A program made the position numbers and the translations under genes. Under the pieces are notes generated by a model, which was not told the origin of the DNA, did no database searches, and worked only from the letters and a program-made list of their open reading frames with translations. This document shows, in pieces, positions 4,606 through 57,999 of a stretch of 64,000 nucleotides of DNA; positions within the stretch are counted from its first letter, which is position 1, and each line of letters opens with the position of its first letter. The stretch lies in the NCBI GenBank assembly GCA_902779565.1, contig CACZCD010000001.1:3929-67928 (forward strand), written 5' to 3'. This DNA comes from an uncultured bacterium (GTDB lineage: Bacteria; Verrucomicrobiota; Kiritimatiellia; RFP12; UBA1067).

Positions 4606-4640
4606 AGTTGGTAGTTGATAGTTGGTGGTTGATTTGTCTC
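4606..4640 (-). repeat. Heptamer tandem repeat forming the 5' leader of the nucleotidase gene (mRNA sense ACCAACU/AUCAACU x4)
   Basis: The plus strand reads AGTTGGT AGTTGAT AGTTGGT GGTTGAT TTGTCTC. This is near-identical in architecture to 25361-25400, upstream of the esterase gene. Confidence 0.8.
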
Positions 4641-4705
4641 ACGCAGAGGCGCAGAGGACGCAGAGAGAAATTTCGGAGTTGTGACTCCGCTCAAAAAATA
4701 ACATG

Positions 4706-4777
4706 GATTCCACCTTTCCACTTTTCCACCTTTCCACCATTCCACCTTTCCACTTTTCCACCTTTCAACCTTTCAAC
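4706..4777. repeat. Nine exact-length 8-bp tandem units NNTTCMAC (minus-strand sense GTKGAANN)
   Basis: gaTTCCAC ctTTCCAC ttTTCCAC ctTTCCAC caTTCCAC ctTTCCAC ttTTCCAC ctTTCAAC ctTTCAAC. The U32 stop codon (4765-4767) lies inside unit 8. Confidence 0.9.
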
Positions 4778-7391: not shown

Positions 7392-7420
7392 ATGATACCA
7401 TTTTGCCGCCCTCCGCGCAA
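7392..7420 (-). promoter_or_regulatory. Putative rpmE promoter: TTGCGC-N17-TATCAT with a TGG extended -10
   Basis: The minus strand reads TTGCGC ggagggcggcaaaaTGG TATCAT, 32 nt upstream of the ATG. The -35 ends 8 bp from the boundary of repeat array C. Confidence 0.5.
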
Positions 7421-7427
7421 GAGGGTG

Positions 7428-7652
7428 CGCGGGAAAGGCGCTTGTGCTTGTGTTTGTTGCCAGTCCGTGGCCGCGTCCGTTGTAGCCCGTTGCCTGTCCG
7501 TTAGGCGTCCGTATTAGCCCGTGTGAAGTCCGTAATCTGCCTGAAGCCTGTCCATGATATGTCCGTGGGTAGTCCGTGGTGTGTCCGTCTATGGGAGGGC
7601 GAGTGTCCTCGTGAAACGCCTCAAGTCCGTAATGCGTCCTTCTCGTATCCGT
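7428..7652. repeat. Array C: GTCCGT (complement of ACGGAC) hexamers at about an 11-bp period, plus a terminal block that is an inverted copy of 23224-23287
   Basis: Cores start at 7463, 7475, 7485, 7496, 7507, 7517, 7528, 7539, 7550, 7561, 7572, 7583, 7605, 7625, 7636 and 7647, with degenerate positions at 7594 and 7616. Segment 7428-7490 equals the reverse complement of 23224-23287 except for one T indel. Confidence 0.9.
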
Positions 7653-7660
7653 GTGAAGAA

Positions 7661-7697
7661 ATGCGAAAAGGCGGGCGGCCCGAAGACCGCCCGCCGC
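7661..7697 (-). terminator. Rho-independent terminator of the HU-like gene cluster
   Basis: The minus strand reads GGCGGGCGG-tcttcggg-CCGCCCGCC followed by TTTTCGCATTT, about 70 nt downstream of the stop at 7766. Confidence 0.7.
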
Positions 7698-7765
7698 CAC
7701 GGAGGGTGCGCGCGTCCACGAATGCAATCCGCTACGCAATCGCGCGCCTCCGTCTTTCTCCGCCC

Positions 7766-8833
7766 TTATATCGAGACGACAGTCACCGTCACCGGCGAAG
7801 AGGTGTGATCCGCACCGCCGCTGTGGCGCGTCACCGTGACCGAAACCTCGGAATTGTCCAGTACATCGTCGAGTCCGGTGGGCCACTCGGACTTCAAGTA
7901 CACATCGGTCATCTCGTGTACGCTTCCCCAGACCTCCGCACCGTCCTCGCGGGTGAATTTCACCGACAACTCTGAGCCGTCATACCCGAAGTTGCGCCCA
8001 GAGATCATGACTTCCTCTCCCTTGATGAGCTGCCCCGGTATGGCACCCGCAGCCGTAGAGACGATTGAGGTCACCACCGGTGTCAGATCCGGTCCGGGCG
8101 GGATCGCCGCCGCCTTGACCGTGACCTTGTGCAGAGCCGTGACGAGCGGAGCCGTGGGGTCGAGACCGTGCGAGACGAGCCGCACGTAGTATGTCCCCGC
8201 CGATACCGCCGAGGCGAGCGTGCAGATGATCCGCTGGCCGTCCTCGGTGGAGACCACCGTGATGTCTGCGACCTTGGTCAGTCCGTCCGCCGCAACGAGC
8301 GCAAGGGATTCGTCCTCGCCGTCCGGCACCGTGAGATCGATGCCCGCAATGCGGAACTCCTTCAGTCCGTCGATCAGGCGGTAGGTCTCGGACGCGAGAT
8401 CCATGACAGAACTGATCTTCACGTTGCCGTTCACCGCTTCCACCCCGAGGCTTGTCGGTGCTATGCCGGACACCGCATCGCGGATGTCCTGTGAGAGCGT
8501 CGCGCCGATGTAGAGCGTGTTGCGCGGGGCGCGGAACTCGTCGTCCTCGCTGTCGAACGCCCCGCCAATCATCGGATAGAGCGACACCGCGCCCATGTTG
8601 ATGCGTACGACATCGTCCGCGATCTTCTCGGCGGCAAACTCATAGAACGCGTTCAGGAAGTACTGCGCCGTAGCGCGGGTCATGAACGTGCCCCTGTCGA
8701 GCATCCGCTGGAGGATGTTGTCGTAGGCGAGCGAGCCAATCGGAACGGCCACGCCAAGATACGGAGCCTTCGCCGCCGTCGAAGTGCCGTTACGCACGAG
8801 ACGGTAGCCGACTTTCATTGTCTTCGTTGACAT
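7766..8833 (-). CDS. HU-like DNA-binding domain protein with C-terminal Ig-like (DUF4469-type) repeats
   Basis: 355 aa. The N-terminal about 100 aa (KVGYRLVRNG...YLGVAVPIGSLAYDNILQRM...VRINMGAVSLYPMIGGAF) follows the Bacteroidota-type HU/DUF4469 pattern. It is a paralog of the next gene. Confidence 0.7.
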   Translation of the reverse strand: MSTKTMKVGYRLVRNGTSTAAKAPYLGVAVPIGSLAYDNILQRMLDRGTFMTRATAQYFLNAFYEFAAEKIADDVVRINMGAVSLYPMIGGAFDSEDDEFRAPRNTLYIGATLSQDIRDAVSGIAPTSLGVEAVNGNVKISSVMDLASETYRLIDGLKEFRIAGIDLTVPDGEDESLALVAADGLTKVADITVVSTEDGQRIICTLASAVSAGTYYVRLVSHGLDPTAPLVTALHKVTVKAAAIPPGPDLTPVVTSIVSTAAGAIPGQLIKGEEVMISGRNFGYDGSELSVKFTREDGAEVWGSVHEMTDVYLKSEWPTGLDDVLDNSEVSVTVTRHSGGADHTSSPVTVTVVSI

Positions 8834-8850
8834 GATGTTTATCCTTTCTT

Positions 8851-9558
8851 TTATTCCGCCTTCACGACAATGTTCTTCACCTTTGCCGTTGCGGGCTTCA
8901 GCGATTCGCGCATCCCGTTGCGGCAGCTCACGACAAGCGTGTACGTGCCGGGTTCAGGCGGCTCCGCGAAGACGCAGTCGATGGTCTGGCTATCGCTCCG
9001 CTCCACTGTCGCCGTGGCGACGATGTCGCCCGTCTTGGCGTTGACGAGCCACACGCCCTCGTCCGGGTTGTCCGGCGAGATGCCGAGTTTCTGACCCTGA
9101 ATGAGCACGCGATTCGTGCCGGTGATCTCGGAAACGCGCTTCGTGACGGCGTCCATCACGGCGGCGACCGTACAGGTGAGACCGAGCGTGACGTTCTCCG
9201 GCAGCACCGCCGACATCGCACTCTTGAGCGGATCGAGCGTGCGTATCGTCGCGATGAGCTGGTGCCGTTCCGGATCGAACGCCTCATCCTCGCTCATGAA
9301 CGCGCCGCGTATCGCGAAGCCCGTGGTGAGCTGTCCGAGGTTAATGCGGTAGCCCGCAATCAGCTGAGTCATGATCTCCTCCGAGAGCGCGTCGAGGAAG
9401 TACTTCCACAGCGATGCGTCCTGCTTGGTGCGCTCCGCAAGACGCTCCGCGAGTTCATCGCGCCCGATCGTGCCGTTCGTCTGAACGTGGGCTGTATAGA
9501 CCACGCGATCCGTGATTGCGTCAGGAACACGCGTCAGGGAGAATACGATATTGTCCAT
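8851..9558 (-). CDS. HU-like DNA-binding domain / DUF4469 protein
   Basis: 235 aa. N-terminal HU-like module (VYTAHVQTNGTIGRDELAERLAERT...YRINLGQLTTGFAIRGAF). C-terminal DUF4469-like Ig module (LIQGQKLGISPDNPDEGVWLVNAKTGD...PGTYTLVV). Confidence 0.75.
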   Translation of the reverse strand: MDNIVFSLTRVPDAITDRVVYTAHVQTNGTIGRDELAERLAERTKQDASLWKYFLDALSEEIMTQLIAGYRINLGQLTTGFAIRGAFMSEDEAFDPERHQLIATIRTLDPLKSAMSAVLPENVTLGLTCTVAAVMDAVTKRVSEITGTNRVLIQGQKLGISPDNPDEGVWLVNAKTGDIVATATVERSDSQTIDCVFAEPPEPGTYTLVVSCRNGMRESLKPATAKVKNIVVKAE

Positions 9559-9571
9559 TGCATTCCCCCTT

Positions 9572-9763
9572 TCACTTGTTCACCTGAATGCCGAACGGCA
9601 CGCCAAGCCCCACAACCCCGATTGTGTGTGCGGAGTCCGCCGGAGTCGTGACGGCGGTGCATCCCGCAAGCGCCGCACCTGCGACGCCCGCAACGGCCGC
9701 AACTGCGGCCCGTACCGCCTCCTTCAGGAAGGCGATCAGCTTGTTCTTCAGCTTGCTTTTCAT
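9572..9763 (-). CDS. Small putative lipoprotein (63 aa)
   Basis: MKSKLKNKLIAFLKEAVRAAVAAVAGVAGAALAGC... with an LAGC lipobox-like site. Start placed at ATG 9763; the longer ORF-track start is unsupported. Confidence 0.5.
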   Translation of the reverse strand: MKSKLKNKLIAFLKEAVRAAVAAVAGVAGAALAGCTAVTTPADSAHTIGVVGLGVPFGIQVNK

Positions 9764-9876
9764 TGACTGTTTTCCTTTGTCTGCATTGAACGGCGGCGAG
9801 CGCATGGCCACGCGGACATGTACGTCCTCCGCCACCATGCATTGGCGTCGGGGATGCGTCCGGGTTCGGAAAATCT

Positions 9877-10374
9877 TCAGAAACCTTCCGCCGCCCACAA
9901 CGCCTTGAACCGCGAAATGAATCCCGGCAGAACATGACGCCGGAACGTCCACATGGCGATGCCGATCTCCGCCGCGACCTTCTTCCAGTTCAGCAGCTTC
10001 ATGTAAAGTTCGGCAATCCGGCGATCCTCCGGCGAAAGCCGAGCGACGGTGTGGCGCACCGCAAGGCGGTCACGCTCCCGGACACGCTGACGCGACGACA
10101 TGGCGTACATGTCCCGCACGGCCTCAACGGCAGGCTCTCCACACCGCATCTGCCACGGAATGAGGGACCGAAAATTGCGCCGCCCTTCGTTCTGCGCCTC
10201 GTTCAAAGCCAAGGAAAGCGCAGCCTTCCGACCGCGCTCCCCTTTATCCTTATTATAGTGCAACCTCCGCAGTATCATGTTCTCGACATCCGATTCGTCG
10301 AGTCCATACGGACGATGCTCACGCACATAGCGCCTCGACCAATGCCGAGCGAAGTCGATTGATTTCCGGTCCAT
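9877..10374 (-). CDS. Sigma-70 region-4-like HTH protein (small sigma/ECF-like regulator)
   Basis: 165 aa. LSPEDRRIAELYMKLLNWKKVAAEIGIAMWTFRRHV resembles a sigma70_r4-type HTH. I see no clear region 2. Confidence 0.6.
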   Translation of the reverse strand: MDRKSIDFARHWSRRYVREHRPYGLDESDVENMILRRLHYNKDKGERGRKAALSLALNEAQNEGRRNFRSLIPWQMRCGEPAVEAVRDMYAMSSRQRVRERDRLAVRHTVARLSPEDRRIAELYMKLLNWKKVAAEIGIAMWTFRRHVLPGFISRFKALWAAEGF

Positions 10375-10484
10375 GCCAATGTCCTTTTTCTGGTGGAGGT
10401 CCGGCCCATTCCAGACACTCCCAAGACATTGGCATCGACTTCGCCATCAGGTTCGGTTTCAACGAAAACAATTCAAAAAACTTA

Positions 10485-10631
10485 GCAGGGTGCGACACCC
10501 GGACATCGCACCCTGCAATCACCAAACTCCGCAAGGTGCGACACGGACACTTCGCACCCTGCGACTCTCTCTTGTTGCACCCTGCAACATCGCGCTATCG
10601 CACCTTGCCACTTTCGCCCGTCATACCCTGC
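10485..10631. promoter_or_regulatory. Iteron/operator cluster: two 32-bp palindromes (GCARGGTGCGA-N10-TCGCACCCTGC) plus three direct half-sites, right halves phased at 23 bp
   Basis: Right half-sites at 10506, 10552, 10575, 10598 and 10621. Inverted left halves at 10485 and 10531. The cluster lies 110-260 bp upstream of the sigma-like gene. Confidence 0.8.
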
Positions 10632-10803
10632 GACTCAAAAAACCTCTTTTAGGGCACCCAAACCACCGCCCCCGCATCATCGCGCCGCCCCTCCGCTCAT
10701 GCATTGAAGGCCCCTGTTCTCCACCGTTTTAACAAAGGAGGGCCGCCACCGACATTGGCCTGCCTTCCGAATTCATTGGTGCAATAGCTTGTTCATTCAT
10801 AGT

Positions 10804-11634
10804 TTACATCTTTGGCATCGTGTCCTTCATGCCAAGCGCAAGATACTTGGAGCGCGCATAGTCGTAGTACTTGAGATCGACTATGGAATTCTCTGGAATG
10901 CCGATCGAGGCAAGGTAGCGGTGACGTGCAGTGGTGTCCACGCCATCGGTGCAGCCGGGCACAACAAGGCAGCGAACCTCCATCTTCGCCTTCGCCGCGA
11001 CCAGCCGCTCAAGATTCTTCCTGACGATCTTGTTTGAAACTCCCGTGTACTTCATGTGCAACGTATCGTCCTCGGCCTTGTAGTCTGGGAGCCACAGGTC
11101 CGTGACGGGCAGCATCGCGTCAATCGCAGCGGGTGGCGCGTAGAGCGATGTGTCAAGGCATGTATGAAGTCCGGCGGCCTTGAATGCCTTGAACAGCTCC
11201 GCCGCCCATTCCCAGAAGAACAGCGGTTCGCCGCCGGAGAGCGTCACGCCACCGCCCGACTCGTCGTAGAACGCCTTGTCCTCAAGAGCCTTCGCGACGA
11301 TCTCGGGAATCGTCATCGGCTTGCCGTAGAGCTTGAGCGCCCGCGTCGGACACGTTGCCTCGTCCATCGTGCAATGCTCGTGGTGCTTGCACAGGTGCTG
11401 GAACCGCGCCCACTGCGCCTCAGACTTTATCGATTCGGGGTTGTGGCACCAGATGCACTTCAAGGGGCACCCCTTCACGAAGAAGGTCGTGCGGATGCCC
11501 GGCCCGTCCCAGATCGCCATCCGTTTAGTGTCGAGCATCAGCGGCGCCTTAACGGCACGCCCGGCTGCGGACAGCATTGGGCTTACGGCAAACGCTGTCG
11601 AAGATACGATGAAACTCTTGCGCGTTACAGTCAT
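10804..11634 (-). CDS. Glycyl-radical enzyme activating enzyme (radical SAM, PflA-like short type)
   Basis: DGPGIRTTFFVKGCPLKCIWCHNPES (CxxxCxxC) and GGVTLSGGEPL. An alternative start at M33 (MLDTKRM) is possible, since the first 30 aa look signal-like. Confidence 0.9.
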   Translation of the reverse strand: MTVTRKSFIVSSTAFAVSPMLSAAGRAVKAPLMLDTKRMAIWDGPGIRTTFFVKGCPLKCIWCHNPESIKSEAQWARFQHLCKHHEHCTMDEATCPTRALKLYGKPMTIPEIVAKALEDKAFYDESGGGVTLSGGEPLFFWEWAAELFKAFKAAGLHTCLDTSLYAPPAAIDAMLPVTDLWLPDYKAEDDTLHMKYTGVSNKIVRKNLERLVAAKAKMEVRCLVVPGCTDGVDTTARHRYLASIGIPENSIVDLKYYDYARSKYLALGMKDTMPKM

Positions 11635-11638
11635 TATG

Positions 11639-11686
11639 TCACCACTGCTTCATGATATTCTCGGCACGGCGGATGTAGGCATGCCC
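11639..11686 (-). pseudogene. Relic 3' end of a glycyl-radical enzyme gene (16 codons)
   Basis: The minus strand reads GHAYIRRAENIMKQW-stop, preceded by an in-frame TAA. The intact enzyme ends DAYIRRAENVMKGW-stop at 17821-17865. Confidence 0.75.
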
Positions 11687-11717
11687 TTATTGTGCCACAT
11701 TGGCGCATCAGCCACTT

Positions 11718-14700
11718 TCAAGGCAAATATGGACGAATGCAGACGAAATTGACGCCCAGGCGCTCACCCTTGGACGCGGCCTCGTCCGTGATCACGAGTT
11801 CCGTTTCGCCGCGCTCGGCCGCAAACACGACCTGATGCAGGTTGATCCGCCCGTATTTGCCCTTCTTCTTGCTGACCTTCGTGCTGCGGTCAACATATGA
11901 CCAGCTGAGTTCGGGAAGCAACCGCACACCGTCCTTGAAGATGGCCTTAAGCGGAATTTCGCGCGGGTTGGCCTTTCCGGCCTTCATGTCGTCCACATCA
12001 AACGTGGCGTACCTGAGAACGTATGTCCTCCCAGCGACAAGGCCGCAGACCGACTGCGTAAGGTTGTTCGCGGTTTCGCCGCGCTTGAACGAAGCGAAGG
12101 TGTCGCCGCATCCAGTTCTGCCCGCCAGATAACGGTTTTCGGCCCACTCGGCAAGCTTGGGGCATTCGTCAAGCGTCACGTCCCCATGCACCTTCCACGG
12201 CCCGAAAGCGTGCTCGAAATCGCCGTTCCGGAGATGGCCCGGGATGTAGCGCAGACCATACTGCTCCGCAATCGAATCGGTGCGTCCCTCTATGCAGTAG
12301 TGCCGCATCAGGCGGAACGACCAGCGCAGCGTATCGTCATCGGCATGATGGGCGCCCCAGTAACCGGCGGCGACGAGACCATCGCATCGCGGGTCGGTGG
12401 CGAGCGCGTGTATCTGCATCGCGAGATACGCGTTGTAATCGACCTCGGGATGGTGCGCGATCGAAAGCTGCAGAAGCCCCGTGAAGTTCCCACTGACCAC
12501 GCCCAGGCAGTCCTGGCAGAACGGATGCGTATCGCGATACAGCCCCACGCCGACAATCATGGATTCGATGGCCGCAAGCGCCTCAGCCTCCGTCTTTTTC
12601 GTGCGCATATAGCGCTCGTTGAGGAGAAGTCCGCGCCCATGGCCGGCATTCGCAATCGCCGCGAACATCTCGGACTCAATCGGCCGCCGCGTTGGCGACG
12701 CGATCACCCAGGTGCAGACCGTCCGCTCCGTGTCGCGTTCCGCGCAGAACTTCTCGATGGCGTCTATGAACTCCATGTTGGTCTTGTCGTTCTTCGGGCG
12801 GAGTCCCTGTTCGTCGAGCGTGATGCCGTCGCATGCGCGCTGGTTCAGCCCCGTCGATCTGCCGATGTTCCTGCTCATCCTCTCGGCCGTGCCGAGCGTC
12901 CTCACGTTCGCGAGCCACTGCCGCCCGAGGTCGTGCAACCGCCCGATGCTCTCCTTGGGCGCAGGCCCGCCGTTCATCGTCGTCACGCTTGGAACCACGT
13001 AGCGCCAGTAGAAGTCCCAATCGTAGCTCTCCTTGAGCGGCAGCTTGCGCGCGTAGGGGGCATAACAGATGATCATGGGGATCTCGCGCACCGCAATCCG
13101 CCCGGCGCCCTTGACGGCAAGCTGGTGCTCGCCTTGAGAAACAAGCCGCACCGTCTCCAGGGCGGGCGTGCCGTTCGTTATCACGCACTGCCCGTCAAGG
13201 CTTACCTCCGCGCTGTCAGCACCCGACACTCCGATGAACACCCATCCGTGTCTCCGCGTCTCGAACAGAAACTCTCCGGACGTCTCCTCCCCTGGCATTT
13301 TGGCGTCCAGCACCTCGGTCACGTAGTTGTTGAGTCGTTTGCGCCGCTCGGGATGCTTGATCTCCTGCACGGTCTCCACGCCGTACCGATACTTCTTCTC
13401 GTGTATTGCCGTTCCATCGCTGCGGCGCACCAGCGAAACCGTCATACAACCGGAATCGGCATTCTCCGGTAACGTGAAGAACATCTCGTCGCGCACAAGC
13501 GGTGCCCGCAGTTCGCCGCCCCATCCTTCGGAAGATATGAAGACGTCGCAAGTGCTCAGATCGGCGCCGCCCGGCAACTCCCCGAAAAAGCGAAACGAGA
13601 AACGCCGGTCGTCGCTTCTGATCCGCGCAAGCCGGCGGCTCCAAGGCACGAAGCGGGGCTTGCCGTCCACGGATTCGACGGTCCTGTCGGCATCCGAATG
13701 GGCAGTCCAGAATATGGCCGGCCTCAGATCGACATCGCCATCTGCGAGCGTAAACTTCACGTCCTCGAGCTTCACGTTGTCGGCGCAGTCGATGTAGAGG
13801 CCGAATGCCGGCAGGATTGAGGACCCGAAGCTGACCGCAGCATCAGGATACGCTCCCGGCAGCTTCGGCACGGGCTTTTCCATCGCCTCCTTGCTCTTCT
13901 CCTCCCCGGCACCATGGCATGTGATCTTCACGTTCCGCAACGTTACGTTCTTCGCGCGGCATCCGTCAACGCCGGTGATGGAGCTCGCCACAACGCCGTC
14001 CGCCTCGCCCGTCACGTTCTCGATCACGATGTCGCGCAGGATGTAGCTTTTGCCCGGCGACACTCCGGTTGAACGCCCGGTGCGCGTGCCGCCGCGCACG
14101 AATATCGGAACCTTCGCGCCATTCTCAAACGTTATACCGCTGTACCGCACCTGCTCCACCATTCCACCGTCCACGCACTCAACGGAGATGGCCGAGTTGG
14201 CAACGCCGAACGGCGCGCGCTTCGTCGCGCGCCAGAAATACCTGTTCTTCCCGCGATGTTTGGGATTCTTCGAAAGACAGTCGCGCCTCGCGGCCTCGCA
14301 GCGACAGTCTTCGAAGCGGATATTGCGCACCGTGCCGTGGCTGGCCGTGCCTATCTTGAACACGTTGCATTGCGAGCGCCCCACGCAGCGGCGGATCAGG
14401 ACGTTCTCCACGGTGTAGTCTGGGTCGTTGGATTTTATGCAGAACGCATCGTCGCCCGAATCGACATCGCAGTCCTCGATAAGCACGTTCTTCGCCTCGA
14501 TGTCGAACCCGTCGTTGAAGGAATCGGCATGGCTATCGACCTTCACGCGCCGCGCCACAACGTCCTCGCAGCGCTTGAACACGATTCCCCAGCAGGCCGC
14601 GTCGCGCAGGGTGAAATCCTCCAGACGCACCCCCTTGCAGTCCCCGAAGAACAGTCCGCGTGCGTTCAGGCCCTCGCGGCAACCCTTGACGTCCTTCGGG

Positions 14701-15062
14701 CGCTGCGGCCAGCTGAAGCCGTCGCCAAACACCGTCCCCGGCCCCGTGACCGCAACGTTCGTGGCGCAGAGCGCGAACACCACCGCGCTCCACGTCCCCT
14801 CGGAACACGGAAGTTCGGTTACGCGGTAGTCCTTGATGTTCGCAGACCCTTGCAGAACTGCGCCTTCGGCAAGATGCAGCTCCACATTGCTCTTGAGGTC
14901 AAGCTGTCCCACAAGATGCCGCCCGGCCGGCACAACCACCCGTCCACCGCCAGCCGCGTTCGCCGCATCGATCGCGGTCTGCCAGCGCGCGGTTTCGAAA
15001 CCATCTGCAAAAGCGGCCAGCTTGATTGCGCCGGCCGCCGCTACGCAAAATGCACGCAACAT
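11718..15062 (-). CDS. Secreted multidomain glycoside hydrolase: N-terminal GH28-like beta-helix, C-terminal CBM-like domain
   Basis: NDGFDIEAKNVLIEDCDVDSGDDAFCIKS (GH28-type catalytic Asp pattern). Signal peptide present. A C-terminal NGDFE... galactose-binding-like module. ATG at 15062 overlaps the upstream stop (TGATG); the ORF-track start at 15065 is GTG. Confidence 0.8.
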   Translation of the reverse strand: MLRAFCVAAAGAIKLAAFADGFETARWQTAIDAANAAGGGRVVVPAGRHLVGQLDLKSNVELHLAEGAVLQGSANIKDYRVTELPCSEGTWSAVVFALCATNVAVTGPGTVFGDGFSWPQRPKDVKGCREGLNARGLFFGDCKGVRLEDFTLRDAACWGIVFKRCEDVVARRVKVDSHADSFNDGFDIEAKNVLIEDCDVDSGDDAFCIKSNDPDYTVENVLIRRCVGRSQCNVFKIGTASHGTVRNIRFEDCRCEAARRDCLSKNPKHRGKNRYFWRATKRAPFGVANSAISVECVDGGMVEQVRYSGITFENGAKVPIFVRGGTRTGRSTGVSPGKSYILRDIVIENVTGEADGVVASSITGVDGCRAKNVTLRNVKITCHGAGEEKSKEAMEKPVPKLPGAYPDAAVSFGSSILPAFGLYIDCADNVKLEDVKFTLADGDVDLRPAIFWTAHSDADRTVESVDGKPRFVPWSRRLARIRSDDRRFSFRFFGELPGGADLSTCDVFISSEGWGGELRAPLVRDEMFFTLPENADSGCMTVSLVRRSDGTAIHEKKYRYGVETVQEIKHPERRKRLNNYVTEVLDAKMPGEETSGEFLFETRRHGWVFIGVSGADSAEVSLDGQCVITNGTPALETVRLVSQGEHQLAVKGAGRIAVREIPMIICYAPYARKLPLKESYDWDFYWRYVVPSVTTMNGGPAPKESIGRLHDLGRQWLANVRTLGTAERMSRNIGRSTGLNQRACDGITLDEQGLRPKNDKTNMEFIDAIEKFCAERDTERTVCTWVIASPTRRPIESEMFAAIANAGHGRGLLLNERYMRTKKTEAEALAAIESMIVGVGLYRDTHPFCQDCLGVVSGNFTGLLQLSIAHHPEVDYNAYLAMQIHALATDPRCDGLVAAGYWGAHHADDDTLRWSFRLMRHYCIEGRTDSIAEQYGLRYIPGHLRNGDFEHAFGPWKVHGDVTLDECPKLAEWAENRYLAGRTGCGDTFASFKRGETANNLTQSVCGLVAGRTYVLRYATFDVDDMKAGKANPREIPLKAIFKDGVRLLPELSWSYVDRSTKVSKKKGKYGRINLHQVVFAAERGETELVITDEAASKGERLGVNFVCIRPYLP

Positions 15063-16402
15063 CACTCAATGCTCCCCATGCAGACGAGACGCACACCGTG
15101 CGTCTCGCTTCTATACGTCGGAGAGCCGTTCCCACGCGAAGCAGACCTGCATAAAGAAGCCGCACTTCCGTAGTAACCTCCACGCACAACGCGCATAGAT
15201 GAAGTGCCACGCCGCGGAGACTGGCCATCGTCGGAGACGTTTGCCGCTCCGTTGAGGCTGGAGCAGTCGTCCACATAGTAGTCGTGGCACCATTCCCCCA
15301 AGTTGCCATGCATATCGTAGAGTCCCCAACTATTCTTGCCGTACGACCCGACAGCCGCAGTTGCGTTGTTGGTGGTGCAGAACCTGTCGGGAGCGTCCGT
15401 ACCGTTCACAAGCCCGCCGTTGTACTTGTACCGCCCTGGCAGATTGGAATCTTCTTCCGCATTAGAGTACGGAGTGCCGTCGCCCCATTTGCCTTCGCCG
15501 TTGCCGGCGCGGCAAGCGAATTCCCACTGCGCTTCCGTGGGCATGTCGAAGTCTATGCTTGTCCGCTTGCGAATCATTCCGAGAAATGAATTCTTATGTG
15601 GTGCTTGGGGCCAGTAGGTGGTCTTGTCTGGTTGCACCTGGCTGGTAGTCACCCACCCGGAACACCTGATCTCGGTATAGGCAACGCGATCTACCGGACG
15701 CATTGCTTTGTATGCCTCGTTCGTGTATATGCTGGGGCACTTCCCCATCACGTGATACCATTGCGTCTGGGTCACGGGGAATACGCCGATGTAGTAGTCG
15801 TTCGAGAGCGTCACGAGATGCGGAATTTCGTTTGCCGAGTTGCGCCCAGCCTCGTTGACGCTGCCCATGGTCCACTCCACGTTCTTCGCGTGGATGCGGC
15901 GCATGACCATCTTCGTGGTGCGGTAGTCGTCGTTGCCAAGAAGGCCGCCGGGAAGGAACTCCTCGGACGGATAGTACGCCTGCGTATTTGTCGATACGGT
16001 TGTGATATCCACCACCATGTAGTCCGGCGGCGCGTTCGTCTCCCAGGCCGTGAGAACGGCGCGGATGTTGTTCGCGGGAACCCTGTGTCCCGGCCACGAG
16101 AGGTCGGGCCGCCATTTGATGGAGTAGCGCGACTTGCCGCCAACGATACGGAACACGTCGCTGTCCTCGGTGAAGTTCTGGATGTGTTCGCCGCCGATCG
16201 ACACCCATCCGTTCGCGCCGTTCGTCTGCACGTCAAGCGTCACCACCGCCGGAGACTGCGTGAGTGAATACTCGATGGTTACCGTTCGCCTGACTTGCCG
16301 CACCGTCATGTCTGTGACCTCAGGAAGGTCCGCAATTCCGGAGACGGCGGCGCACGCCGTAATTGCCGCCGCGAATGCCATTTTCATCTTCTGTGCTTTC
16401 AT
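15062..16402 (-). CDS. Secreted SUMF1/FGE-sulfatase domain protein with an N-terminal Ig-like region
   Basis: WGLYDMHGNLGEWCHDYY...RVVRGGYYGSAASLCRSASR, the formylglycine-generating-enzyme fold signature. Signal peptide present. Confidence 0.85.
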   Translation of the reverse strand: MKAQKMKMAFAAAITACAAVSGIADLPEVTDMTVRQVRRTVTIEYSLTQSPAVVTLDVQTNGANGWVSIGGEHIQNFTEDSDVFRIVGGKSRYSIKWRPDLSWPGHRVPANNIRAVLTAWETNAPPDYMVVDITTVSTNTQAYYPSEEFLPGGLLGNDDYRTTKMVMRRIHAKNVEWTMGSVNEAGRNSANEIPHLVTLSNDYYIGVFPVTQTQWYHVMGKCPSIYTNEAYKAMRPVDRVAYTEIRCSGWVTTSQVQPDKTTYWPQAPHKNSFLGMIRKRTSIDFDMPTEAQWEFACRAGNGEGKWGDGTPYSNAEEDSNLPGRYKYNGGLVNGTDAPDRFCTTNNATAAVGSYGKNSWGLYDMHGNLGEWCHDYYVDDCSSLNGAANVSDDGQSPRRGTSSMRVVRGGYYGSAASLCRSASRGNGSPTYRSETHGVRLVCMGSIE

Positions 16403-16423
16403 TGTTTTTCCTCTTTGATTGGG

Positions 16424-16621
16424 TTACCTGATGCAGACCGAAATTCCACGGAAGAGCCCGTCGCTGTTAAAGTCGAATCCGGAGACCGCCGTTTCCGTGC
16501 AGTATCTGGTATCAAGCTCGAAACCGAACAAAGCCACGCCTGGCATCACCACGTCGTCTGACGCGGTGGAGGCCGCCATCAATGCCGCCGTTGCGGCAAG
16601 AACTGCAATCTTCTTCATCAT
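16424..16621 (-). CDS. Small secreted protein (65 aa)
   Basis: MMKKIAVLAATAALMAASTASDD... signal peptide. GGAGAGAG lies upstream. The ATG overlaps the upstream stop (ATGA). No homology that I recognise. Confidence 0.5.
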   Translation of the reverse strand: MMKKIAVLAATAALMAASTASDDVVMPGVALFGFELDTRYCTETAVSGFDFNSDGLFRGISVCIR

Positions 16622-17685
16622 GCTCTCTCCTTTTGTTTTAATGCTTCTGCGAAAAGATCTATACCCTTGAGGTTGAAGTCGAGGTTCGCCTGCGAACAGC
16701 AGTTGGCCCATGGGGCCATGAGAAAACCGAGGAGGTGTTCGCTCAATATGTGCTTGCGGCAGTACGGCACGAGCGCGCCGATGATGTCGTCGCCGCCGGT
16801 CTTCTGCCGTTTGCGCGCACCGGCGCCCGCCCAGTTCGTGCCGCACGGTATCTGGTCGAAGCCAGCCTTCTCAAGCGCATCGAACGCAGCAAGGCGGTGC
16901 GCGTGCCTGTTGATCTTCGGATCGAGCGACCATTGTCCGAGCTGTTCGTCGTAGTACCAGTTGGACTGCACCACGCTTCTCGGGCAGCGCGTGAAGAACT
17001 CCTCGTGCTCCCAGCCGAAATCACTCCACACCCAGGCGCGCGAGCCAAGCTCCTCCACGCAGCCGACGGTGTAGAGGAAATCGCGCCACCACATGTCGCC
17101 CTGGCGCATGACGAAGTAGTCGCGCCCAGGCGCAAAAAGCGCAGTCTCCTCGTCCCAGCCGAGGTGGAAGAAGCGAGGACGCGAGAAGATCTCCGAAACG
17201 TCACGGATGACGTCTTTGGCCACAATATACCATTCCGGCAGCGTCAACATCCTATGATAATCCTTAAGCCAGCCGTCGTGCGTAGCGGAGAAGTTCAGCT
17301 TCGGGATCGGCTCAAGGCCTGCGGTCCTTAGGCGCTCCACCTCCGCGCGAAGCTTCTCCGCCGACCAGCTGCCCTCAATCGCCAGCTCGGGATGGCTGGG
17401 ATAGATGAGACCCTCGCCGATATCAATCACGATCATGTTGAGATTGCGCTCAACCATCCTATCCGTCACGCGCCGCCAAAGTTCTTCCTTGCATCGAAGG
17501 TTCAGGTCTGGAGTCAGGCGTTTCGGCAGGGAATGCCAAAGATGGCGCGGCAGCCACTCGCCCCACATGTTGTGGCCAAGATGCATCAGCATGGCGCGGA
17601 TGGGTTCCTTCCCGCCTGCATAAGCACCGCCCGCCCCGCGCGTTCCGCGCGAGGCATCGGTGTTGCTATTGATGTCAGTTGCCAT
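16618..17685 (-). CDS. TIM-barrel glycoside-hydrolase-like protein (GH20-like motifs)
   Basis: 355 aa. IRAMLMHLGHNMW and FHLGWDEE resemble the GH20-type R-x-LD and H-x-G-x-DE regions, so the functional call is tentative. Confidence 0.6.
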   Translation of the reverse strand: MATDINSNTDASRGTRGAGGAYAGGKEPIRAMLMHLGHNMWGEWLPRHLWHSLPKRLTPDLNLRCKEELWRRVTDRMVERNLNMIVIDIGEGLIYPSHPELAIEGSWSAEKLRAEVERLRTAGLEPIPKLNFSATHDGWLKDYHRMLTLPEWYIVAKDVIRDVSEIFSRPRFFHLGWDEETALFAPGRDYFVMRQGDMWWRDFLYTVGCVEELGSRAWVWSDFGWEHEEFFTRCPRSVVQSNWYYDEQLGQWSLDPKINRHAHRLAAFDALEKAGFDQIPCGTNWAGAGARKRQKTGGDDIIGALVPYCRKHILSEHLLGFLMAPWANCCSQANLDFNLKGIDLFAEALKQKERA

Positions 17686-17820
17686 TTGCTTTATGCCGCT
17701 TGATCCTGATGCAACTCTGGTTGTTCCTTAATTGGCGCGTGTTATATCCCGACCGCATCCTATTTCGCAATCCCGATAGAAAGGTGAATCCGCCATCTCG
17801 CATAGGACAGTCATTGTGTG

Positions 17821-25346: not shown

Positions 25347-25360
25347 GTTAATCCTTTTTT

Positions 25361-25433
25361 AGTTGATAGTTGATAATTGATGATTGGTGGTCTAGTCTCA
25401 ACCTTTCCACTTTTCCACCTTCCCACTTTTAAC
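25361..25433. repeat. Composite intercistronic repeat: heptamer leader (AGTTGAT x4-5) plus octamer units (NNTTCMAC x5)
   Basis: The plus strand reads AGTTGAT AGTTGAT AATTGAT GATTGGT GGTCTA then GTCTCAAC CTTTCCAC TTTTCCAC CTTCCCAC TTTTAAC. It abuts the AI-2E stop at 25435 and the esterase RBS. Confidence 0.85.
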
Positions 25434-33297: not shown

Positions 33298-33660
33298 CTA
33301 CCAGGAGCGGTAATAGACCGGCGGAGGCGGCGGGGGCGGCGGCGCCACCACAACCGGGGCCGGGGAATAGACCGGGGTGCTATAGACCGGCGTGCTATAG
33401 ACCGGTGTGCTATAAACCGGCGTGCTATAGACTGGCGCAGGCGCCACGACAACTGGCGGACGAACGATGCTGTTCACGATCGCCGCAGTGCCGAGAGCGG
33501 CTCCCGCAATGCCCCATCCGCAATGGTGGTGATGATGATGGTAGCCATGGCCACCATGGAACCTAGGACCGCCATGGAACCCACCATGGAACCCCGGACG
33601 GGCGAACATCACACCTGCCGTTGCCACGACTGCCAGCATTACTATCAGTTTCTTGTTCAT
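33298..33660 (-). CDS. Small secreted His-rich / Pro-rich repeat protein
   Basis: 120 aa. Signal peptide, GFHGGFHGGPRFHGGHGYHHHHHHC, a hydrophobic segment, (PVYST)x5, and a polyproline run. Confidence 0.7.
   Translation of the reverse strand: MNKKLIVMLAVVATAGVMFARPGFHGGFHGGPRFHGGHGYHHHHHHCGWGIAGAALGTAAIVNSIVRPPVVVAPAPVYSTPVYSTPVYSTPVYSTPVYSPAPVVVAPPPPPPPPVYYRSW
33362..33435. repeat. 15-bp tandem repeat (NGTGCTATAGACCGG, 4 full units plus 1 partial) encoding PVYST units
   Basis: Read directly inside the His-rich protein gene. The repeat is in frame (15 bp equals 5 codons). Confidence 0.9.
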
Positions 33661-57890: not shown

Positions 57891-57999
57891 TTCCCCTCCC
57901 CCTTCTTCGCCGCCGGCTGCGCCAAGGCAAGACAAACTGTGGCAAAGAAAATTCCTTTCACGTTGTTCCTCCCTGTCGCGCGTACCCGCGCCATTGACA

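What the first reader, a model, noticed from the sequence alone, without database searches (positions are those of the whole stretch)
7428..7652. Inverted partner array (array C) with a 63/64-nt identical terminal block, abutting the rpmE promoter
The plus strand here carries the complementary core GTCCGT at the same period, from 7463 to 7647 with a few degenerate positions. Segment 7428-7490 (CGCGGGAAAGGCGCTTGTGCTTGTGTTTGTTGCCAGTCCGTGGCCGCGTCCGTTGTAGCCCGT) equals the reverse complement of 23224-23287 except for a single T indel. Beyond that block the spacers diverge completely while core and phase persist. The outer end of the block lies 8 bp from the -35 of the putative rpmE promoter. The inner end of the array is followed by the terminator of the HU-like gene cluster. 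Two long arrays of the same exotic motif in inverted orientation, with identical outermost ends, look like the termini of a single element or the arms of an invertible segment.
Basis: seen in the sequence. Interest (0 to 1): 0.8.

Follow-up and report, generated by a model that had tools for sequence, protein, structure and literature searches.

The report
Repeat-array ends of a mobile island
The repeat array next to the rpmE promoter is one of two mirror-image ends of a 15.9-kb gene island that is present in some strains of an uncultured rumen bacterium and cleanly absent in others, and ends built like this, from about 20 evenly spaced copies of one 6-base word, are unusual for a bacterial mobile element.

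Summary
GTCCGT cores recur at a strict 11-bp period in three arrays: C 7463-7652, A 22615-22700 and B 23016-23252. There are 25 triple-unit matches against 0 in shuffles. The outer 54 nt of C and B are a perfect inverted repeat, 63/64 with one indel.

Comparison with other assemblies gives the main result. The segment 7431-23284 (15.85 kb) is an insertion. At least 11 related contigs join yqeY directly to rpmE with no block or array. Strains whose flanks differ by 4-11% carry island DNA that is 99.8% identical, and the identity drops exactly at the block's outer edge. A second island with a different AraC gene carries the same ~540-bp end module at the same site.

The block was not found anywhere else. 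The junction is clean, with 0-1 bp duplicated. No recombinase is encoded in the island or the window.

The GTCCGT/11-bp array itself is a dispersed intergenic repeat family, seen at dozens of loci in two Lentisphaeria genomes. Cores are conserved (1.2-2.0 bits) and spacers are random (≤0.24 bits).

Best reading: these are terminal inverted repeats of a site-specific island mobilised in trans. The arrays would be helically phased protein-binding platforms; that step is inferred. I found no evidence for inversion.

The parts
7431..23284 (.). Whole inserted element, about 15,854 bp. It is bounded by long inverted terminal modules. G+C is 58.4% against 62-63% in the flanks.
   Evidence: Empty sites in L121, L123-L128, L130, L131, L257 and L261. 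Identity discontinuity against L134 at 23287/23288. G+C.
7431..7462 (+). It holds a small GCGC...GCGC hairpin and three CTTGTG-like hexamers.
   Evidence: Found only at the two ends, plus a degenerate copy in L129.
7428..7490 (+). 7428-7430 is probably flank.
   Evidence: junction analysis.
7463..7588 (+). Array C, outer run: 12 register positions at 10-12 bp spacing, 8 of them exact GTCCGT.
7625..7652 (+). Array C, inner three units (GTCCGT, GTCCTT, ATCCGT). They resemble array A.
   Evidence: (pair I3).
7663..7695 (-). Terminator-like hairpin (GGCGGGCGG/CCGCCCGCC plus TTTTC) that closes the HU-like cassette.
   Evidence: 29 of 29 nt are identical after the paralogous cassette in L201. It fails the tool's T-run rule.
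7766..10644 (-). Multi-copy 'HU cassette': a 355-aa HU-like protein (7766-8833) with a hypervariable C-terminus, a 235-aa HU-HIG/DUF4469 protein (8851-9558), an 88-aa protein (9572-9838), and a 165-aa protein with a weak sigma-70 region-4 match (9877-10374).
   Evidence: Pfam and NCBIfam; homologues and their contexts; DNA homology limits 10644-8088; alignment.
10804..21654 (-). Cargo: radical-SAM activase, GH28 enzyme of 1115 aa, FGE-sulfatase-domain protein, 65-aa and 355-aa proteins of unknown function, glycyl-radical enzyme, Fic.
   Evidence: No recombinase family matched.
21793..22584 (+). PAS-AraC regulator, convergent with yqeY.
   Evidence: The protein is identical in L134-L136.
22615..22700 (-). 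Array A: 3+4 exact GTCCGT units on the - strand.
   Evidence: It is missing from the second island type in L256.
22744..23015 (.). Inner part of the right terminal module. It includes a variable patch (22823-23010) that is 64-86% identical between strains, a G+T-rich short repeat (22852-22888) and a palindrome (22934-22971). The palindrome is a perfect 28-mer, ATGTTCATTGTTTGCAAACAATGAACAT, in L134 and L256.
   Evidence: (pair I7).
23016..23252 (-). Array B: 22 consecutive units in 11-bp register, 14 of them exact.
   Evidence: It differs from L134, L256, L258, L259 and L265 by at most one SNP or indel.
23224..23287 (-). Right arm of the inverted block. The head proper is 23253-23284 and 23285-23287 is flank.
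   Evidence: junctions.
7392..7420 (-). Putative rpmE promoter (TTGCGC-17-TATCAT). It is chromosomal and lies 10 nt from the element end.
   Evidence: Read directly from the sequence. Conserved in empty-site strains. Not called by the scan.

Best explanation
Array C and its 32-nt head form the left terminal inverted repeat of a 15.85-kb horizontally mobile genomic island, which sits in an uncultured rumen bacterium of the Planctomycetes-Verrucomicrobia-Chlamydiae (PVC) group, related to Kiritimatiellia.

Shown:
- The island carries a glycan-degradation cluster with a glycyl-radical enzyme, an AraC regulator, Fic and an HU-like cassette.
- It has been inserted, with at most 1 bp of target duplicated, between the stop codon of yqeY and the rpmE promoter.
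- Its ends are the outer edges of the two blocks.
- The same end module is attached to at least two different cargos at the same site.
- Island DNA is nearly identical in strains whose flanks have diverged.
- The island encodes no recognisable recombinase.

Inferred:
- The island is moved in trans by an enzyme encoded elsewhere in the genome, which recognises the heads.
- The GTCCGT arrays are subterminal binding sites. One hexamer per 11 bp puts all sites on one face of the negatively supercoiled helix. A sequence-specific DNA-binding protein can then polymerise along about 250 bp at each end, and the two oppositely oriented filaments pair the ends for excision or integration.
- The junction structure (inverted ends, no staggered-cut duplication) fits a serine-recombinase-like or other non-DDE chemistry better than a classical DDE transposase.
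For: - Empty sites: at least 11 contigs from related strains have yqeY followed after 96 nt by rpmE, with no block or array (L121, L123-L128, L130, L131; L257, L261). Some of these encode the same YqeY protein allele as filled sites.
- Boundary: window against L134 is 99.8% identical from 19123 to 23287, apart from one variable patch. Identity falls to 89-97% from 23288 onward, with differences starting at the third base outside the block. Flanking genes differ by 3-12% among strains.
- At least four flank haplotypes carry the end module (window, L134, the L256 type, L265).
- Cargo swap: L256 shares the block, array B and the inner module as far as window position ~22744. It then continues with a different AraC gene.
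- Inverted ends: a 54-nt perfect inverted repeat, and both ends have a two-part array.
- The target is kept intact. The left flank covers positions 1-12 of the empty-site sequence and the right flank covers positions 12-21.
- The block is not found elsewhere.
- Cores are conserved while spacers are random, and the 11-bp phase is strict.
- The array motif is dispersed at dozens of intergenic loci in two Lentisphaeria genomes. There it sits inside mosaic repeats with sharp 3' boundaries, as small non-autonomous elements do.
- A bacterial precedent exists for helically phased subterminal direct repeats that nucleate a recombinase filament and leave no target duplication: the IS607 family (PMC6188088).
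- Island G+C is 58.4% against 62-63% in the flanks.
Against: - No transposase or integrase was found in the island or anywhere in the 64-kb window.
- No second insertion site for the block is known, so mobility is inferred from presence/absence and from identity discontinuities at a single locus.
- The left junction was seen in only one strain background.
- The protein that binds the arrays is unknown.
- In the Lentisphaeria genomes the arrays are mostly solitary. They lie in either orientation relative to neighbouring genes and are not arranged as paired element ends.
- An array also follows a paralogous HU cassette in L201, where no element end is evident. The array could therefore belong to that cassette rather than to the mobility apparatus.
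- A 63-nt perfect repeat is far longer than any known recombinase site needs.
Confidence: 0.55

Rival explanations
1. The arrays are generic, lineage-wide intergenic repeat modules, comparable to BOX, BIME, REP or MITE mosaic elements. They would serve a host function, such as binding a nucleoid-associated protein, or none at all. The island merely carries two copies. Only the 32-nt heads, or nothing in the modules, would matter for its movement. The modules could also act as homology arms for swapping cargo between islands.
For: - There are dozens of array loci in JAPXLT and about ten in JAQVUB. All are intergenic, lie next to both housekeeping and accessory genes, and occur in either orientation.
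- The arrays are embedded in mosaic repeats that are homologous over more than 240 bp.
- The window and its relatives hold several other kinds of strain-variable short tandem arrays in intergenic spacers.
- An array follows a paralogous HU cassette in L201.
- Two islands with different cargo share the module, which fits recombinational exchange.
Against: - Empty sites have no module at all, so the modules arrive with the cargo.
- The identity break sits exactly at the head's outer edge.
- In the 48 kb of this window outside the island, and in about 150 kb of related loci, there is not a single array.
- Random spacers with conserved cores and phase argue for sequence-specific constraint rather than slippage.
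Confidence: 0.25
2. The arrays are cis-regulatory or architectural sites bound by proteins the island itself encodes: the HU-like pair, the 165-aa protein with a weak sigma-region-4 match, or the PAS-AraC regulator. They would insulate, silence or loop the acquired cluster, or act like a plasmid centromere. They would play no part in mobility.
For: - Array C directly follows the HU cassette, and the same arrangement (cassette, same hairpin, ACGGAC array) recurs in an unrelated context, L201-L203.
- Another cassette variant is followed by a different short-repeat array in L204-L206.
- Tandem 10-12 bp iterons are typical of parC and tubC centromeres and of OmpR/PhoB-type operators (my own knowledge).
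Against: - Three or four cassette copies have no array (L210, L252, L253).
- No HU-like homologue lies near any array in the Lentisphaeria genomes (tblastn).
- There is no ParM, ParA or TubZ partner.
- Array B lies next to no such gene, yet it is the most conserved part of the end module across islands.
Confidence: 0.12
3. The two blocks are the arms of an invertible 15.7-kb segment that flips between two orientations.
For: A perfect 54-nt inverted repeat could support RecA-dependent inversion.
Against: - Every contig that crosses the yqeY-side junction into island sequence past the shared end module (window, L134, L256) shows the same orientation. None places the HU cassette next to yqeY or the AraC gene next to rpmE.
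- No invertase gene is present.
- Inversion would leave both flanking junctions and the rpmE promoter unchanged, so it would switch nothing obvious.
- Presence/absence polymorphism explains the repeats without inversion.
Confidence: 0.04
4. The arrays act as RNA: an unstructured transcript with about 20 ACGGAC (ANGGA-like) or GUCCGU motifs that titrates an RNA-binding protein, in the manner of CsrB.
For: ACGGA fits the A(N)GGA core of CsrA/RsmE sites (my own knowledge). The arrays are unstructured as RNA.
Against: - There was no Rfam hit, and no promoter or terminator was called around the arrays.
- Orientation relative to neighbouring genes is mixed in the Lentisphaeria genomes.
- The strict 11-nt phase has no rationale for an RNA sponge.
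- Array C lies behind a terminator-like hairpin.
Confidence: 0.03

Closest known systems
IS607-family transposon ends (IS1535, IS607), moved by the small serine recombinase TnpA
   Same: Short direct repeats lie near the ends in helical phase, at 10-11 bp. They nucleate a cooperative protein filament that captures the other end. There is no target-site duplication (PMC6188088).
   Different: IS607 elements are about 2 kb and encode TnpA (and TnpB). They have 2-5 motifs of 9 bp per end and no long terminal inverted repeat. Here there are 15-29 hexamer units per end, a 54-63-nt perfect inverted repeat, 15.9 kb of cargo and no recombinase gene.
Eukaryotic class II elements with long TIRs or subterminal repeats (hAT Ac/Ds AAACGG hexamers, CACTA En/Spm, Mutator/MULE, Foldback, Galileo)
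   Same: The ends extend for hundreds of bp and are built from many short transposase-binding repeats in inverted orientation at the two ends. Non-autonomous copies are mobilised in trans (my own knowledge; abstracts of PMC3688188 and PMC3310237; discussion in PMC6188088).
   Different: Those elements are eukaryotic and use DDE transposases that leave 8-9 bp duplications. Their repeat spacing and orientation are usually irregular. Here the host is a bacterium, the 11-bp phase is strict and there is no duplication.
TnGBS, ISLre2 and ISKra4 elements (prokaryotic Mutator-like transposases)
   Same: These elements range from 1.1 to 52 kb and insert at a fixed short distance upstream of the -35 of sigma-A promoters, which spares the promoter (PMC3942029). 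Here the end lies 10 nt upstream of a putative -35. A different element in L129 ends 2-3 nt closer to the -35 than that.
   Different: Those elements encode their DDE transposase, have 24-40 bp IRs and make direct-repeat duplications, at a distance of 15-17 bp. None of these features is met here.
Site-specific islands inserted just downstream of a conserved gene (Tn7-like elements at glmS, SCCmec at rlmH/orfX), including recombinase-less derivatives
   Same: One chromosomal site next to a housekeeping gene is empty in some strains and is filled by elements with conserved ends and variable cargo in others (my own knowledge).
   Different: Tn7-like elements have 3-4 TnsB sites of 22 bp at each end, a 5-bp duplication and tns genes. 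SCC elements have short direct and inverted repeats and ccr genes.
Modular dispersed intergenic repeats (pneumococcal BOX A-(B)n-C, E. coli BIME/REP, MITEs)
   Same: In the Lentisphaeria genomes the array is the variable-copy middle module between a head and a conserved hairpin tail of about 60 nt, at dozens of intergenic loci.
   Different: The repeated module is an 11-bp unit with a 6-bp core, not a 45-bp box. In the window the two copies bound a 15.9-kb insertion.
Type II and type III plasmid centromeres (R1 parC with 11-bp iterons, tubC with 12-bp iterons)
   Same: Arrays of 10-12 bp iterons are coated by a small DNA-binding protein into a helical filament (my own knowledge).
   Different: Those arrays have 4-10 iterons placed next to parMR or tubRZ, and the whole unit is conserved. 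Here there is no partition gene and only 6 of 11 positions are conserved.

Membership tests
Classical bacterial IS or transposon with a DDE transposase | Terminal inverted repeats | tested here: met
   A 54-nt perfect inverted repeat, 63/64 with one indel.
Classical bacterial IS or transposon with a DDE transposase | Target-site duplication of fixed length (2-14 bp) | tested here: not met
   Left and right flanks overlap by at most 1 nt on the empty-site sequences. The GC-rich target varies between strains, so 0 and 1 bp cannot be told apart.
Classical bacterial IS or transposon with a DDE transposase | Transposase gene inside the element | tested here: not met
   Pfam, NCBIfam and PHROGs scans of all island ORFs gave no transposase or recombinase family.
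Classical bacterial IS or transposon with a DDE transposase | Several copies at different sites | tested here: inconclusive
   The block occurs only at this locus in all fetched DNA and in the IMG/VR and JGI scans. The rest of the host genome could not be searched.
IS607 family | Serine recombinase TnpA with an N-terminal MerR-like DNA-binding domain | tested here: not met
   No Resolvase or Recombinase domain in the island or the window.
IS607 family | Helically phased subterminal direct repeats and no target duplication | tested here: met
   11-bp phase and 0-1 bp duplication. Family features taken from PMC6188088.
IS607 family | No terminal inverted repeats; small size (about 2 kb) | tested here: not met
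   A 54-63-nt terminal inverted repeat and a length of 15.85 kb.
Invertible DNA segment (Hin/Gin/Fim type) | Both orientations present in a population | tested here: inconclusive
   Only one orientation was seen in the contigs that cross the yqeY-side junction into island sequence past the shared end module (window, L134, L256). No read-level data were available.
Invertible DNA segment (Hin/Gin/Fim type) | Adjacent site-specific invertase | tested here: not met
   None found.
Integrase-type genomic island or ICE | Integrase gene and direct att repeats, often at a tRNA gene | tested here: not met
   No integrase, no tRNA, and the repeats are inverted rather than direct.
Type II or III partition centromere (parC, tubC) | Iteron array next to a parR/parM or tubR/tubZ operon | tested here: not met
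   The iteron-like array is present, but no actin-like, tubulin-like or ParA-type gene is.
Dispersed intergenic repeat family (BOX, BIME or MITE-like) | Many copies per genome, intergenic, modular with a variable number of the internal unit | tested here: met
   This holds for the GTCCGT array motif in Lentisphaeria genomes JAPXLT and JAQVUB. It does not hold for the block, and could not be tested for the host genome of the window.
Known RNA families (Rfam 15) | Match at the gathering score | tested here: not met
   0 matches in the window. Fold z-scores are +0.4 to +1.7.

The most novel reading that the evidence does not exclude
GTCCGT/11-bp arrays are the signature of an undescribed family of bacterial mobile elements in Lentisphaerota and Kiritimatiellota. 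Their ends would be built like those of eukaryotic Foldback, hAT or Mutator elements: long inverted termini made of many helically phased copies of one hexamer. A trans-acting, non-DDE recombinase would coat these termini. The family would range from MITE-like units of 200-500 bp, present in dozens of copies per genome, to 16-kb cargo islands that insert without target duplication a fixed few bases upstream of a promoter.
Probability: 0.3. Interest if true: 0.8.

Novelty: new variant of a known kind. Interest (0 to 1): 0.68.

Why it matters
If the reading holds, this locus is a clean natural case, with empty sites, filled sites and swapped cargo in one rumen population, of a large metabolic island that moves without its own recombinase. 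Its ends have an architecture not described for bacterial elements: about 250 bp of strictly phased hexamers behind a 32-nt head.

That makes three questions directly testable:
- Which protein reads the GTCCGT arrays.
- Whether filament-mediated end pairing of the IS607 kind scales up to long arrays and large cargo.
- How glycan-degradation clusters spread among uncultured PVC bacteria of the rumen.

The arrays also break short-read assemblies (contigs L120, L135, L255, L264 end in or near them). Islands of this type are therefore probably under-represented in metagenome-assembled genomes.

Tried and rejected
- Viral origin or phage iterons. A 4-unit scan of IMG/VR gave 44 loci. Two control hexamers of the same composition gave 15 and 24. 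All viral hits are perfect 11-bp tandem repeats, so they are mostly background. I drew no inference.
- HU-like genes as a general partner of the arrays. tblastn of all island proteins against 118 array loci found nothing except one AraC paralogue. Only 2 of about 7 cassette contexts have GTCCGT arrays.
- IS256 link. The IS256 IR (GATAAAGTCCGTATAATTGTG; PMC4207318) contains GTCCGT, and a Cloacimonadaceae repeat resembles it. However, the subterminal motif conserved across that family is TGTAAA (PMC7780238), IS256 makes 8-bp duplications, and no Mutator-like transposase lies near any array. I keep this as a lead only.
- Serine-integrase 2-bp core model. The flanks overlap by at most 1 nt on every empty-site allele, so an identical dinucleotide at both junctions could not be demonstrated.
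- Spread of the island by homologous recombination in the flanks. Sequence differences begin 3 nt outside the block, so this is unlikely.
- Coding repeat. An 11-nt period is out of frame, and ORFs across the arrays have no codon bias.
- Literature search on the hexamer returned only primer sequences. A search for Lentisphaerae intergenic tandem repeats found nothing relevant.
- Chi-like protection of a linear form. The orientation would fit, but the strict 11-bp phase has no role in that model.
- Structure prediction of the HU-like protein was prepared (alignment A2) but not run, because it does not bear on the ends.
Full report
**Observation.**
- On the + strand, GTCCGT recurs from 7463 to 7652 at steps of 10-12 bp, mostly 11. 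Nine cores are exact and five have one mismatch in register.
- On the - strand there are two further arrays. Array B (23016-23252) has 22 consecutive units in register. Array A (22615-22700) has 3+4 units.
- A three-unit pattern with up to two mismatches matches 25 times, only in these arrays, and never in 100 dinucleotide-preserving shuffles.
- Over all 44 units the six core positions carry 1.2-2.0 bits and the five spacer positions 0.05-0.24 bits. Core variants recur as GTCCGT-GTCCGT-GCCCGT triplets, which gives a 33-bp higher-order period.
- The outer ends of C and B are a perfect 54-nt inverted repeat (7428-7481 with 23234-23287), or 63 of 64 with one T indel.
- The two ends resemble each other further in. 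They share an identical 18-mer at the inner edge, and the inner three units of C look like array A. Both ends are therefore two-part modules.

**Setting.**
- The window is ordinary chromosome with almost all genes on the - strand.
- Array C lies between a hairpin that closes two HU-like genes (PF14848, DUF4469) and the putative rpmE promoter. Arrays A and B lie between a PAS-AraC gene and the stop codon of yqeY.
- Between the arrays are a radical-SAM activase, a GH28 enzyme, an FGE-sulfatase-domain protein, a glycyl-radical enzyme, Fic and a few proteins of unknown function.
- No transposase, integrase or invertase is present there or anywhere else in the window.
- There is no Rfam family and no tRNA. 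The arrays are no more structured as RNA than shuffled sequence (z = +0.4 to +1.7).
- The host is an uncultured rumen bacterium of the Planctomycetes-Verrucomicrobia-Chlamydiae (PVC) group. Its prfA falls in a 90%-identity cluster with genome bins that NCBI labels Kiritimatiellae.

**The segment between the blocks is an insertion.**
Exact-protein look-ups for YqeY and L31 returned contigs from many rumen samples.
- In L121, L123-L128, L130, L131, L257 and L261, yqeY is followed after 96 nt by rpmE. The spacer has no block and no array.
- I aligned the two window junctions on these empty sites. The yqeY-side flank covers positions 1-12 of the empty-site sequence CATCCCCGCCGCCGCGCACCC, and the rpmE-side flank covers positions 12-21.
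- The target is therefore intact and at most one base is duplicated. The element runs from 7431/7432 to 23284.
- The rpmE promoter-like sequence is present unchanged in empty sites, so it is chromosomal. The element ends 10 nt upstream of its -35.

**The island has moved recently.**
- L134 comes from another study and another strain. Its yqeY is 95.8% identical to the window's and its SASA gene 95.4%. It carries the same island.
- From 19123 to 23287 the two sequences are 99.8% identical, apart from a 190-bp variable patch. From 23288 outward identity drops at once to 89-97%, and differences begin three bases beyond the block.
- Contigs that encode one and the same YqeY protein allele show the empty site (L257, L261, L260) and the filled site (L256, L258, L259, L264, L265). 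Array B differs from the window by one SNP in the filled ones.
- At least four flank haplotypes carry the module.
- Homologous recombination in the flanks would have carried donor flank sequence along with the island, and none is seen.

**The ends are shared by different cargos.**
- L256 matches the window from yqeY through the block, array B and the inner module up to about window position 22744. It then continues with a different AraC-family gene and lacks array A.
- L129 has a 1.75-kb insert with an SSF transporter at the same site. Next to rpmE it carries a degenerate copy of the head (GGCAACAAGCACAAGCACAAGAGTCTCTCCC), and its junction is shifted by 2-3 nt.
- The site is thus a hot spot that can be empty or filled by at least two or three different inserts, and at least two of these share the same end module.

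**Is the block a common dispersed repeat?**
- blastn of the head against the window and all fetched loci finds it only at the two ends, in the same-site contigs, and degenerate in L129.
- A degenerate 21-mer scan of JGI metagenomes gave 20 hits. All are unrelated CTTGTG microsatellites.
- IMG/VR has none.
- The rest of the host genome could not be searched, so this is absence in what was available, not proof of absence.

**The array motif, by contrast, is widespread in relatives.**
About 30 came from one Lentisphaeria genome bin (JAPXLT) and about 10 from another (JAQVUB), both at about 52% G+C.
- In those genomes the arrays have up to 22 units and are all intergenic. They lie in either orientation relative to neighbours, which range from purD and alaS to restriction-modification, ABC-3C, Fic and exosortase genes.
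- They are near-perfect 11-mers (GTCCGTgtccc, gtaaa, gttcc). On the 5' side lie other short tandem repeats. On the 3' side lies a conserved ~60-nt tail with a hairpin that shows compensatory changes and a sharp end at GGTTAAAAA.
- Upstream parts are homologous over more than 240 bp between loci.
- These are mosaic dispersed repeats of the BOX, BIME or MITE kind.
- Hits outside Lentisphaeria are short. Given the control scans in viral contigs (44 loci against 15 and 24), they are mostly background. Small recurrent families do exist in a Cloacimonadaceae genome bin, Myroides and Xanthomarina.

**The HU-like genes.**
- The 355-aa protein has 187 homologues, most on contigs of 1-2.5 kb.
- The four-gene cassette is a multi-copy paralogue with 80-97% DNA identity between loci. 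That identity always stops at window position ~8090, where a hypervariable C-terminal domain of about 100 aa begins.
- In L201-L203 the cassette sits behind a GH20 cluster. It is followed by the same hairpin and an 18-unit ACGGAC array with random spacers, which shares 26 identical bases with array B. An inverted GTTCGT array follows.
- In L204-L206 another cassette variant is followed by GGTTAGTT-type repeats.
- In L210, L252 and L253 there is no array.
- No HU-like gene lies near arrays in the Lentisphaeria genomes.
- The association is real but partial.

**Mechanism.**
Shown:
- The island is bounded by inverted repeats and is polymorphic between strains.
- It was recently transferred and is site-specific.
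- Its ends are conserved while its cargo varies.
- There is no staggered-cut duplication and no recombinase gene.

Inferred:
- The island is mobilised in trans.
- The head is the site of DNA chemistry.
- The arrays are binding platforms.

On the third point, the strict 11-bp step equals the helical repeat of negatively supercoiled DNA (established knowledge). All cores therefore face one side. Conservation of cores and phase over random spacers indicates sequence-specific protein contacts repeated once per turn.

The closest bacterial precedent is the IS607 family. There, four helically phased 9-bp direct repeats nucleate a TnpA filament that captures the other end, and no duplication is made (PMC6188088). 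In overall shape the ends resemble the long, repeat-built termini of eukaryotic hAT, CACTA, Mutator, Foldback and Galileo elements. Insertion a fixed short distance upstream of a -35 recalls the TnGBS, ISLre2 and ISKra4 elements (PMC3942029), but those encode DDE transposases and make duplications.

I put the element-terminus claim at about 0.85 and the platform-for-mobility claim at about 0.35. The stated confidence of 0.55 is for the package.

**Rivals.**
- The arrays may be generic repeat modules that the island merely carries (0.25).
- They may be cis-regulatory or architectural sites for the island's own DNA-binding proteins (0.12).
- Inversion (0.04) and an RNA sponge (0.03) have little support.
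- An assembly artefact is excluded. Several independent assemblies from different studies give the same filled junction.

**Novelty and verdict.**
Mobile islands at fixed sites and helically phased subterminal repeats are both known. Three things are not described, to my knowledge and in the searches run: long inverted termini made of 15-29 strictly phased hexamers; their attachment to a 16-kb recombinase-less island that inserts cleanly next to a promoter; and the same motif forming a dispersed repeat family in related genomes. I rate this a new variant of a known kind, with interest 0.68.

Noticed in passing
window 4606-4774, 25360-25430, 35735-35837, 44008-44127, 33367-33437: There are other short tandem arrays in intergenic spacers between co-directional genes. 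Read in mRNA sense, they start right after the stop codon: (AAGGTGGA/AAAGTGGA)n, then (CAACTAC/ATCAACT)n just before the next start codon. Elsewhere the units are AGGTTGAA/AACTCTTC, GAGGGTT/CCTCTTC and a 15-mer repeated 4.7 times. Copy number differs between strains: 8, 3, 2 or 0 units, with spacers from 178 nt down to 22 nt. Some strains have AAGGTTGA units instead. Their function is unknown. They look like a second, separate class of strain-variable intergenic repeat.
   Followed up: partly
window 7766-8833 (C-terminal part about 7766-8090): The 355-aa HU-like protein belongs to a multi-copy cassette family. The N-terminal ~250 aa are nearly invariant and the last ~100 aa are hypervariable. 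DNA homology between paralogous cassettes always stops at the same point, window position ~8090. This suggests cassette-type or targeted diversification of a C-terminal domain.
   Followed up: partly
window 22823-23010; L134, L256, L258, L259, L265: Inside an otherwise 99.8% identical island, a 190-bp patch between arrays A and B is only 64-86% identical between strains. It holds a palindrome that is a perfect 28-mer (ATGTTCATTGTTTGCAAACAATGAACAT) in five contigs and imperfect in the window. It looks like an operator for a dimeric protein.
   Followed up: partly
L129:8198-10000: A third allele of the yqeY-rpmE spacer carries an SSF-family transporter gene in A+T-richer DNA. Only one degenerate copy of the terminal head is present, next to rpmE, and there is no array.
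   Followed up: partly
L201:8850-9320: Downstream of a paralogous HU cassette, an ACGGAC array is followed head-to-head by a 7-unit array of a variant core, GTTCGT, also at an 11-bp period. Further short ACGGAC runs follow, then a tRNA gene and a prophage-like region with a large serine recombinase.
   Followed up: partly
L001, L029, L060, L106, L112 (genome bin JAQVUB): A ~300-bp composite repeat is present at six or more loci. It consists of an ACGGAC array, an 80-bp centre and a GTCCGT array, with the 5' ends of the two arrays facing each other. The GTCCGT array varies from 4 to 11 or more units, as counted.
   Followed up: partly
L051, L073, L084, L116; L002, L048, L107; L026, L063: Small dispersed repeats with 3-5 GTCCGT units at 11 bp recur in a Cloacimonadaceae genome bin, Myroides and Xanthomarina. 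The Cloacimonadaceae unit (GATAAAGTCCGTAAT) resembles the IS256 terminal repeat GATAAAGTCCGTATAAT. No transposase lies next to them.
   Followed up: partly
L120, L135, L255, L264, L202, L205-L209: Short-read contigs repeatedly end inside the block, inside array A, or at the edge of the HU cassette. These repeats fragment metagenome assemblies.
   Followed up: no
window 56112-57935: A 607-aa ORF lies in a stretch of locally low G+C (53%). My G+C-based gene call missed it. I did not annotate it.
   Followed up: no
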